Of a DNA stretch of 13,998 nucleotides, positions 1,946 through 4,491 are shown one piece after another. Position 1 is the stretch's first letter; each line of letters opens with the position of its first letter. The stretch comes from a virus (lineage: Duplodnaviria > Heunggongvirae > Uroviricota > Caudoviricetes), in the IMG/VR virus record IMGVR_UViG_2740892233_000016, positions 1 through 13,998 of that record; one strand, given 5' to 3'. A model generated the notes under the pieces. The model was not told the origin of the DNA. It saw only the letters and a program-made list of their open reading frames with translations, and did not search any database. The position numbers and the translations under genes are program-made.

Positions 1946-2093
1946 CGGGTATCACAGATATGACAAACACGAAAAAAGCGGCCCCGATATGGAGCCGCCT
2001 TTCTGAACAATTAACCCGCTGCGCCTTATGTGTATGTGATCCCAAACATAAGCACGGGGATGATAGCCGCTATCAGGCTGGTGGGCAATGCAA

Positions 2094-2282
2094 TCAGTCT
2101 GGTTCAGTTCGTTGCCATACCTGCAATGAGCGCTTTTCCCTGTACTCTTTAAGGAATTGCTCAAGGGCAAAAGCACATGGCGCGAATCTTTCTGATTCAT
2201 GCTCTATCTTTCTGCGCCGTCTTTTCCGTGCCGGTGATAATGTTTTGGTCAATTCTTTATCGGTCATTGTGTTGTCCTGCAT
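2094..2282 (-). CDS. Hypothetical small basic protein (62 aa; alternative start at 2267 gives 57 aa with AGGA RBS)
   Basis: Minus-strand ORF downstream of Arc-like gene 1; contains RKRRRRK basic stretch; antisense frame on + strand is open (typical of real coding DNA). Confidence 0.4.
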   Translation of the reverse strand: MQDNTMTDKELTKTLSPARKRRRRKIEHESERFAPCAFALEQFLKEYREKRSLQVWQRTEPD

Positions 2283-2324
2283 AGCAATGCGCCGTAATAC
2301 CTCACACCACGGCGCTGATAGTTT

Positions 2325-2498
2325 TTATCCTTTGGGTTCTATGCCGCGTTGCTGTAATTCTTTGCGGAGAACGCGTTTAATCCAAGTGGCTAAAGATGTG
2401 TCGCCATCGGCCTTAGCTGCTTCTTCTAGCTGCGCTCTGAAGTCTTCCGGTAATCGCATTTGGTATGGAGGCGAACGTTTTTCTAATGGTGTTGACAT
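2325..2498 (-). CDS. Arc-like ribbon-helix-helix repressor (57 aa), module 1
   Basis: Not in the ORF track (<60 aa). Translation MSTPLEKRSPPYQMRLPEDFRAQLEEAAKADGDTSLATWIKRVLRKELQQRGIEPKG has the RHH pattern (beta strand ..MRLPEDF.. then two helices). RBS GAAGGG 8 nt upstream; start codon overlaps the divergent promoter/operator. Confidence 0.7.
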   Translation of the reverse strand: MSTPLEKRSPPYQMRLPEDFRAQLEEAAKADGDTSLATWIKRVLRKELQQRGIEPKG

Positions 2499-2538
2499 GG
2501 TAATTACCCTTCATTACTATACCTACATGGTAATTACC
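2492..2538 (+). promoter_or_regulatory. Rightward sigma70-like promoter (TTGACA-N17-TACTAT) with two copies of palindromic operator GGTAATTACC
   Basis: TTGACA 2492..2497, TACTAT 2515..2520; 14-mer ACATGGTAATTACC at 2495..2508 and 2525..2538 (palindrome cores 2499..2508 and 2529..2538, exactly 30 bp apart), overlapping spacer and +1. Confidence 0.55.
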
Positions 2539-2628
2539 ATTGTACTTGCCATTACACAAAAATCAACGCCCCGCAGTGCTGGGAACACATACGGGGCGTC
2601 TAACCAACAACGTAAACTAGGAGCCGTT

Positions 2629-3189
2629 ATGGTTGCCGTAAATCATATACCACACCTTGTACACACACAAACGGCCTTTGTGTGGCGTTTTCTGGCCCTG
2701 AATATCGGAGAAAAAAACCAGTTGATCGCCAGTGTCGAAAATAGCTATGATTCCCGCGCACCTCATAAAACGGGTGCCGGGATTGGCGTCCTGGGCAAAA
2801 CTGAAGCGCATAACACGCGCCCCGCGTGTTTTTTTGTGCCGCATAGTCACACCTTATCAATGGTGGGCTGTACGGGGGCGGAGCAATCCGCGCCGGTTTC
2901 TTCAGTGTCCGGTTACGCCAACCCTGTACAGTCCGCCACCAGCGAAATTGGCGTTTCCGGTGGCGGTTATCTTAACCACACTGAGGAGGCTGCCAACATG
3001 GCTACTATCCCTACCCTTGTACATTCTCAAACCGCCTTTCTCTGGCGCTTTATCATCTTTGGCGCGTCAGAACATCAAATCATCCACGTAACCGCCTGGA
3101 CGGAACGCGAAGCGCGTAGCCGTTGCCCGTCCGGTTGTGTTGCTGTATTCGCCGCCCGTATTCGTCAGGAGGTGTGCCATGTGCAATAA
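2629..3189 (+). CDS. Early-operon protein with internal tandem repeat of a small domain ending ...FAARIRQEVCHVQ (possibly Icd-like family; unverified)
   Basis: 186 aa from ATG 2629 with strong RBS AGGAG (2619..2623); two internal copies of motif ...LVH(T/S)QTAF(V/L)WRF(L/I)... ; the ORF-track 409-aa ORF is an upstream run-through of this frame. Confidence 0.6.
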   Translation: MVAVNHIPHLVHTQTAFVWRFLALNIGEKNQLIASVENSYDSRAPHKTGAGIGVLGKTEAHNTRPACFFVPHSHTLSMVGCTGAEQSAPVSSVSGYANPVQSATSEIGVSGGGYLNHTEEAANMATIPTLVHSQTAFLWRFIIFGASEHQIIHVTAWTEREARSRCPSGCVAVFAARIRQEVCHVQ

Positions 3190-3905: not shown

Positions 3906-4085
3906 TTACTCTGGTTCTTTGGCCTTGCGCCGCTGGCGATATTCAACTTCTCGTTTTAATGCTGCAGTAACAAATTGCCCCGTACTTTCGCCAGGCATTT
4001 TTACCGCCTCAACATTGTTCATAACTTCATGCGGAACCCTTGCCGCAACGGTTTGTGATTTTGCGTTTACTGCTTTTGTCGCCAT
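3906..4085 (-). CDS. Arc-like ribbon-helix-helix repressor (59 aa), module 2
   Basis: Not in the ORF track (<60 aa). Translation MATKAVNAKSQTVAARVPHEVMNNVEAVKMPGESTGQFVTAALKREVEYRQRRKAKEPE; RBS GAGGGG 8 nt upstream; divergent from the module-2 promoter. Confidence 0.65.
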   Translation of the reverse strand: MATKAVNAKSQTVAARVPHEVMNNVEAVKMPGESTGQFVTAALKREVEYRQRRKAKEPE

Positions 4086-4284: not shown

Positions 4285-4491
4285 ATGAGAAATCATACCA
4301 CACACCCGCAAGGGCGGGACTCGCACAACCTGAATAAATACATCTGGCGTTTTATCGCCCTGAGCACGGCACAACCGCGCGTGATTACCATTGAGGCCAC
4401 CAGCGAACAGGAAGCACGCCAGCAATCTCCGGCTGGCTGCGTGATGGTATTCGCTGCCCGTATTCGTCAGGAGGTGTGCCATGTGCAATAA
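4285..4491 (+). CDS. Small protein ending ...FAARIRQEVCHVQ (single-domain paralog of 2629..3189; possibly Icd-like)
   Basis: 68 aa from ATG 4285 (RBS GAGG); C-terminal 25 aa nearly identical to C-terminus of 2629..3189; the ORF-track 190-aa ORF is an upstream run-through crossing the promoter. Confidence 0.55.
   Translation: MRNHTTHPQGRDSHNLNKYIWRFIALSTAQPRVITIEATSEQEARQQSPAGCVMVFAARIRQEVCHVQ

What the first reader, a model, noticed from the sequence alone, without database searches (positions are those of the whole stretch)
2629..3189. Internally duplicated small domain (...WRF(I/L)...FAARIRQEVCHVQ family) present in three copies across two genes
The 186-aa protein contains two copies of a roughly 60-aa domain (HIPHLVHTQTAFVWRFLAL... 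and ATIPTLVHSQTAFLWRFIIF...FAARIRQEVCHVQ); a third, single-domain copy is 4285..4491. The last about 75 nt of the two genes are nearly identical, so the same terminus is reused. From memory this resembles small proteins annotated as Icd-like (host cell division inhibitor-like) in P4-like elements, but I cannot verify that here. A domain fusion at the head of an early operon is unusual.
Basis: partly seen in the sequence, partly recalled or inferred. Interest (0 to 1): 0.45.

Follow-up and report, generated by a model that had tools for sequence, protein, structure and literature searches.

The report
RNA immunity switch misread as protein
The supposed 186-residue "two-domain" protein is really the immunity-control region of a P4-like satellite prophage (a promoter, two small regulatory RNAs and a 63-residue Icd/Kil-type gene) that happens to lie in one open reading frame, an arrangement already known from phage P4.

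Summary
The sequence similarities are real, but the "fused, internally duplicated protein" reading is not supported. Inside 2629-3189 lie an internal sigma-70 promoter (2722-2751), an IsrK/seqA-type RNA with terminator (2758-2834) and a C4/CI-type antisense RNA (2856-2943). Both RNAs score above Rfam gathering thresholds.

The C4 loops are complementary to sites upstream (in IsrK) and downstream. The downstream site covers the Shine-Dalgarno sequence of the true 63-aa Icd-like gene (2998-3189, NF033153 57 bits). The complementarity co-varies across 72 distinct cassettes.

"Copy 1" (2629-2712) is only the first 28 codons of an icd-type gene. A sister element without the cassette carries one intact icd made of a copy-1-type 5' end and a copy-2-type 3' end.

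Phage P4 has the same layout: seqA, CI RNA and kil, nested in frame within the longer eta ORF. I read the 186-codon frame as an eta-like "ribosome track" that lets transcripts from the upstream promoter override RNA immunity. That role is inferred, not shown.

The third copy (4285-4491) belongs to a different element. The window joins two elements at an N10 gap.

Ordinary, known biology with a modest new twist.

The parts
2325..2498 (-). Divergent small ribbon-helix-helix-type gene (57 aa), putative protein repressor of the upstream promoter
   Evidence: Weak YlcI/YnfO hit (18.7 bits, below cut-off 30) and Arc-like hit E=0.037. Its paralog 3906-4085(-) scores 59.7 bits. Substitutions against L115 and L002 are fewest at codon position 2 of the minus frame (21/10/27), the pattern expected of a coding frame.
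2492..2520 (+). Upstream sigma-70-like promoter (TTGACA-17-TACTAT), candidate PLL analogue. It is flanked by two palindromic operators, ATGGTAATTACC(C/A)T, at 2497-2510 and 2527-2540.
   Evidence: Promoter scan, 10 of 12 matches. Direct repeat D14. The palindromes were read directly from the sequence. Function is inferred.
2629..2712 (+). Copy 1: SD (AGGAG, 2619-2623) plus ATG plus the first 28 codons of an icd-type gene. It is the grafted start of the through-ORF.
   Evidence: 97% identical over 2500-2712 to the leader and 5' end of the single 65-aa icd of the cassette-less element L005. Homology stops at 2712. No NF033153 hit.
2722..2751 (+). Internal promoter (TTGATC-18-TATGAT), analogue of P4 PLE. 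The start site is predicted at about 2758, the IsrK 5' end.
   Evidence: Promoter scan. TAnnnT is invariant at the same column in 10 of 10 cassette loci. P4 has TTGCCT-18-TATAGT the same distance upstream of its isrK/seqA hit.
2758..2834 (+). IsrK / seqA-type RNA. It carries the upstream C4 targets b1 (TTGGCGT, 2783-2789) and a1 (ACTGAAG, 2800-2806) and an intrinsic terminator (stem 2812-2830 plus T-run).
   Evidence: Rfam RF01394, 66 bits (GA 50), E=1.5e-12. Terminator scan. Complementarity read.
2856..2943 (+). C4 / P4-CI-type antisense RNA. Loop a' is 2896-2908 and single-stranded b' is 2915-2921. It contains an in-frame AUG at 2860, the position of the Gifsy-1 orf45 start.
   Evidence: Rfam RF01695, 77.6 bits (GA 45), E=4.1e-14. 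The MFE fold equals the Rfam consensus, z=-5.2. Across 44 sequences 99.7% of cells are paired and 14 pairs show compensatory changes; slid controls give 30-49%.
2948..2990 (+). Downstream targets b2 (TTGGCGT, 2948-2954) and a2 (ACACTGAGGAGGC, 2978-2990). a2 contains the Shine-Dalgarno GAGGAGG (2983-2989) of icd.
   Evidence: 13-bp duplex with the C4 loop. Across 72 cassettes, cognate a'-a2 duplexes average 11.3 bp against 6.6 bp for non-cognate pairs. Three-way covariation is visible.
2998..3189 (+). The real small gene: a 63-aa Icd/Kil-family protein (copy 2). Its last 11 nt overlap the next gene's ATG at 3179.
   Evidence: NF033153, 57.1 bits (cut-off 25). PGAP annotates the CDS WP_150322679.1 on the identical sequence. 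The N-terminus MATIPT is shared with P1-type Icd and P4 Kil.
2629..3189 (+). 186-codon through-frame (eta-like ORF) running from the grafted start through the promoter, IsrK, C4 and icd
   Evidence: Open frame. The same frame is open in 65-67 of 72 cassettes. It extends a median of 345 nt upstream of the C4 AUG, against 51-66 nt in control frames. Three different in-frame junction types occur in relatives. P4 eta is the precedent.
4285..4491 (+). Copy 3: a 68-aa Icd-like gene of a second, cassette-less element
   Evidence: NF033153, 69.8 bits. It lies in the roxA-phoQ element of NZ_CP027442, not next to copy 2.

Best explanation
The interval is the immunity and early-leader region of a P4-like / PICI-type satellite prophage. 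It is built like the P4 immunity region and the P1 immI operon.

Anatomy (about 0.95 confidence). In order: a 28-codon icd 5' fragment with its own SD and ATG; an internal constitutive promoter; an IsrK/seqA RNA with a terminator; a C4/CI antisense RNA; its downstream target overlapping the SD; and a 63-aa Icd/Kil-type gene translationally overlapped with the next early gene.

Mechanism in the prophage state (inferred from P1, P4 and Gifsy-1, supported here by covariation; about 0.85). Transcripts from the internal promoter mostly stop at the IsrK terminator. Read-through transcripts are processed to C4 RNA. The a' and b' segments of C4 pair with a2/b2 and mask the icd ribosome-binding site. 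Untranslated RNA is then terminated before the replication genes. IsrK carries decoy copies (a1/b1) of the same targets.

Mechanism on induction (inferred; about 0.55). The upstream, operator-flanked promoter (2492-2520) gives a transcript on which ribosomes start at 2629. They translate the 186-codon frame straight through IsrK, C4 and a2/b2. This suppresses termination and RNA immunity, as translation of eta does for PLL transcripts in P4.

On this reading the 186-aa product matters as an act of translation, not as a two-domain protein. The apparent duplication exists because the start of the track was taken from the 5' end of an icd gene.
For: - Both RNA genes score above gathering thresholds.
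- The C4 fold is 99.7% paired with 14 compensatory pairs.
- a'/a1/a2 and b'/b1/b2 co-vary together in every locus aligned. Cognate duplexes average 11.3 bp against 6.6 bp for non-cognate pairs, with 26 distinct loop specificities.
- a2 includes the icd SD.
- NF033153 hits only the 63-aa part.
- Pfam Phage_ASH hits exactly the RNA cassette, aa 40-133. It also hits P4's historic 'cI protein' ORF, which contains the CI RNA: Rfam C4 74.9 bits, isrK 60.8 bits. The C-terminus of that ORF is Kil (NF033153 73.9 bits).
- The cassette block 2758-3017 recurs at about 70-75% identity in P1-like plasmids, SfV, Stx phages and other lambdoid phages, upstream of Icd, Rha or other genes.
- The cassette-less sister element has one hybrid icd.
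- Open-frame statistics support a selected through-frame. There is no excess of third-codon-position variation in the C4 part (0.705/0.658/0.687).
- Relatives keep an SD-ATG start in frame across three different junctions.
- Literature: eta/kil, an internal promoter, and the statement 'Eta translation prevents termination' (PMC10111431). Gifsy-1 orf45, which runs across the C4-equivalent, is translated, is needed for the downstream gene, and its amino-acid sequence is not conserved (PMC4825925).
Against: - No transcript, processing or translation data exist for this element. Both promoters are consensus matches only.
- Two of about 13 Icd-type cassette loci (L114, L120) have a stop just upstream of IsrK, so the long frame is not universal.
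- Frame openness could be partly inherited, because the cassettes are related.
- The original paper on eta (Forti et al. 1999) could not be read here. Its content is taken from a secondary summary and from memory.
- In P4, eta is coupled to the alpA homologue, whereas here the start is a separate SD-ATG.
Confidence: 0.7

Rival explanations
1. Copy 1 is only a recombination scar. An IsrK-C4-icd cassette was spliced into, or next to, a resident icd gene, leaving a dead 5' stump. On this view the open frame across the cassette is a by-product of G+C-rich structured RNA and shared ancestry, and nothing is translated from 2629.
For: - PGAP calls 2629-2967 an 'ash family' pseudogene.
- Homology to the intact icd of L005 stops abruptly at 2712.
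- Control frame f1 is also open over the C4 part in 39 of 72 cassettes.
- L114 and L120 lack an upstream in-frame start.
Against: - The SD and ATG of the stump are retained.
- The frame to the icd stop is intact in relatives with three different junctions (after HNLNK, after WRFLA, after LALNIGE).
- The frame is open upstream for a median of 345 nt, against 51-66 nt in the control frames.
- In the class where the downstream gene is out of frame, 11 of 12 through-frames still run 178 nt or more past the gene's ATG.
- P4 and Gifsy-1 give experimental precedent for translation through this region.
Confidence: 0.28
2. One reading: a genuine 186-aa protein with two tandem Icd-like domains joined by a linker, acting as a bivalent cell-division inhibitor.
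For: The frame is open, there is a good SD before the ATG at 2629, and the N-terminal similarity is significant.
Against: - The family HMM matches only once, at aa 137-180.
- Copy 1 has at most about 42 of about 60 residues and no C-terminal motif.
- The 'linker' is a promoter plus two covarying RNA genes with a terminator.
- The C4 part shows no codon-position signature of selection on the protein.
- The amino-acid sequence of the equivalent Gifsy-1 ORF is not conserved.
Confidence: 0.03
3. The true eta analogue is the whole 409-codon ORF 1960-3189, which begins 15 nt after the alpA-like gene (1739-1945), as P4 eta begins at the stop of the alpA homologue ORF88.
For: - ORF 1960-3189 is open.
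- PGAP aligns 1960-2475 to long 'Icd-like' proteins.
- Long frames from the alpA end to the icd stop also occur in L005, L135, L006 and L025.
Against: - Over 2094-2498 the plus frame shares third codon positions with two minus-strand genes, whose frame shows the coding pattern (position 2 least variable). This is a classic shadow ORF.
- In relatives about 80% identical (L115, L002) the long frame is broken in 2499-2628 by indels, while the 2629-type ORF stays intact.
- 1960-2628 matches no protein family.
Confidence: 0.08

Closest known systems
Phage P4 immunity region (PLE promoter, seqA, CI RNA, seqC, nested genes kil and eta)
   Same: - Same order of parts: an internal promoter with an 18-nt spacer, an isrK/seqA hit, a C4/CI hit, then a GGAGGCTGCC SD.
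- The small gene starts MAT(T/I)... and matches NF033153.
- The small gene overlaps the next gene.
- A longer ORF starts upstream of the internal promoter and runs in frame through the RNAs into the small gene.
   Different: - P4 eta (197 aa) starts at the stop of the alpA homologue, and its N-terminus is unrelated to Kil. Here the long frame starts at its own SD-ATG, borrowed with 28 codons from an icd gene.
- Here the start sits behind a divergent RHH-type gene with palindromic operators.
- The downstream genes are RepA-helicase / PICI-type, not epsilon and alpha.
- The loop sequences (immunity specificity) differ.
Phage P1/P7 immI operon (c4 antisense RNA, targets a1/b1 and a2/b2, icd, ant)
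   Same: - C4 RNA is flanked by two target pairs.
- a2 covers the icd ribosome-binding site.
- Icd is a small protein starting MATIPT.
- The P1-like plasmid locus L009 has the same cassette followed by Icd, Ant and C1.
- That c4 represses icd translation and thereby ant transcription, and that Icd blocks cell division, is established knowledge recalled from memory (Citron & Schuster 1990; Biere et al. 1992; Riedel et al. 1993).
   Different: - No ant gene follows here.
- In the P1-like locus the C4-AUG frame is open for only 204 nt upstream, with no icd 5' fragment.
Gifsy-1 isrK locus of Salmonella (IsrK, STnc1160, orf45, anrP)
   Same: - IsrK has its own promoter and a leaky terminator.
- A processed stable RNA lies downstream.
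- An ORF starts at the AUG in the 5' end of the C4-equivalent (about +106/107 from the IsrK start) and is translated and required for the downstream gene.
- The nucleotide sequence is conserved but the amino-acid sequence is not (PMC4825925).
   Different: - orf45 ends at the anrP start (AUGA overlap). Here the frame is fused in frame to icd.
- The downstream gene there is an antirepressor, not Icd.
- The authors describe IsrK as a trans-activator.
Pfam PF10554 Phage_ASH ('Ash protein family')
   Same: Residues 40-133 of the 186-aa ORF match at 63.3 bits.
   Different: The matched segment is nt 2746-3027, which is the promoter -10, IsrK, C4, a2/b2 and the first codons of icd. The same model hits P4's obsolete 'cI protein' ORF and the cassette inside over-extended 'Rha' and 'Icd-like' calls. 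It therefore marks the RNA cassette rather than an established protein domain.

Membership tests
Icd-like small proteins (NCBIfam NF033153; P1 Icd, P4 Kil) | Score above the curated cut-off (25 bits) | tested here: met
   2998-3189 scores 57.1 bits and 4285-4491 scores 69.8 bits. P4 Kil scores 73.9 and P1-type Icd 49.8.
Icd-like small proteins (NCBIfam NF033153; P1 Icd, P4 Kil) | Copy 1 (2629-2757) is also a member, that is, a second domain | tested here: not met
   No hit for the 43-aa fragment, and a single stretch (aa 137-180) in the 186-aa ORF. Similarity covers only the first ~28-42 residues.
Icd-like small proteins (NCBIfam NF033153; P1 Icd, P4 Kil) | Inhibits cell division or kills the cell on over-expression | not testable with these tools
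   Needs expression of the 63-aa and 186-aa forms and microscopy.
C4 antisense RNA / P4 CI RNA (Rfam RF01695) | Covariance-model score above the gathering threshold, and a fold supported by compensatory changes | tested here: met
   77.6 bits against GA 45. 99.7% of cells paired and 14 pairs with double changes; slid controls 30-49%.
C4 antisense RNA / P4 CI RNA (Rfam RF01695) | Two exposed segments complementary to targets both upstream and downstream, the downstream one at the RBS of the first gene | tested here: met
   a' 2896-2908 pairs with a2 2978-2990 (13 bp, includes the SD) and with a1 2800-2806. b' 2915-2921 pairs with b2 2948-2954 and b1 2783-2789. Covariation across cassettes is shown.
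C4 antisense RNA / P4 CI RNA (Rfam RF01695) | Stable processed RNA that confers immunity | not testable with these tools
   Needs a Northern blot, RNase P processing and superinfection assays.
IsrK / seqA RNA (Rfam RF01394) | Score above the gathering threshold, own promoter, and an intrinsic terminator at the 3' end | tested here: met
   66 bits against GA 50. Promoter at 2722-2751 and terminator at 2812-2830 plus a T-run. The promoter is a consensus match only.
P4 eta/kil nested-gene architecture | A long ORF begins upstream of the internal promoter and is in frame with the small gene through seqA and CI | tested here: met
   2629-3189 is open. P4 8761/8767-8168 is open in the same way. The frame is open in 65-67 of 72 cassettes.
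P4 eta/kil nested-gene architecture | [quoted passage not shown] | tested here: not met
   The start at 2629 has its own SD, 684 nt downstream of the alpA-like stop. The extension back to 1960 is a shadow ORF and is broken in relatives.
P4 eta/kil nested-gene architecture | Translation of the long ORF makes upstream-promoter transcripts insensitive to immunity | not testable with these tools
   Needs nonsense and suppressor experiments as done for P4. Only indirect support from frame conservation.
Tandem-duplicated two-domain protein | Two complete copies of the domain joined by a sequence that evolves as protein | tested here: not met
   Copy 1 is truncated. The linker consists of RNA genes. 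There is no codon-position periodicity in variation.

The most novel reading that the evidence does not exclude
An open 'ribosome track' through the IsrK-C4 cassette may be a selected, general feature of this immunity module wherever it occurs: satellites, P1-like plasmids and lambdoid or Stx phages. It would let transcripts from an upstream promoter override RNA immunity by translation. On this reading Pfam Phage_ASH is the footprint of that track rather than a protein domain. In the PICI-type satellites the track would have been re-primed repeatedly by grafting the SD, ATG and 18-29 codons of an icd gene in frame onto the cassette. Three junction types are seen. The grafted start may itself be guarded by a second, SymR-like cis-antisense RNA.
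Probability: 0.4. Interest if true: 0.55.

Novelty: new member of a known kind. Interest (0 to 1): 0.3.

Why it matters
- **Annotation.** The case shows how a conserved RNA immunity cassette gets read as protein. Examples are 'Ash family', over-extended 'Icd-like' and 'Rha family' calls, and P4's old 'cI protein'. This inflates protein families and has led a P4-satellite survey to use PF10554 as its profile for the P4 epsilon component (PMC8628076).
- **Biology.** The locus places a P1/P4-type antisense-RNA immunity switch at the head of the replication operon of a satellite common in EHEC O26, O111 and O103. The cassette shows many specificities: 26 distinct loop sequences among 72 cassettes.
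- **A testable prediction.** If the translated-track idea holds generally, stop codons placed in the through-frame should restore immunity-dependent termination. This could be tested in any of these elements.

Tried and rejected
- **Protein-based locus search.** The search of species-representative genomes with the 63-aa protein returned only 3 loci. I switched to a DNA pattern for the C4/a2 core in viral contigs, which gave 120 loci and 72 unique cassettes.
- **The 409-aa ORF (1960-3189) as the eta analogue coupled to alpA.** Rejected as the main reading. The 2094-2498 part is a shadow of minus-strand genes, and the frame is broken in L115 and L002.
- **Protein-level selection on the cassette frame.** Tested by codon-position entropy. 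There is no third-position excess in the C4 part. The IsrK part could not be judged that way because fixed-offset columns were misaligned.
- **Copy 1 as part of the mobile cassette.** Rejected. Cassette homology in phages and plasmids starts at about 2758, not 2629.
- **The cassette-less icd as a deletion between the two repeats.** Judged less likely than a graft. L005 follows copy 1 to the very end of copy-1 homology (2712), beyond the 46-nt repeat. Direction remains unproven.
- **Literature.** Forti et al. 1999 (PMC94026) is not held in the library.
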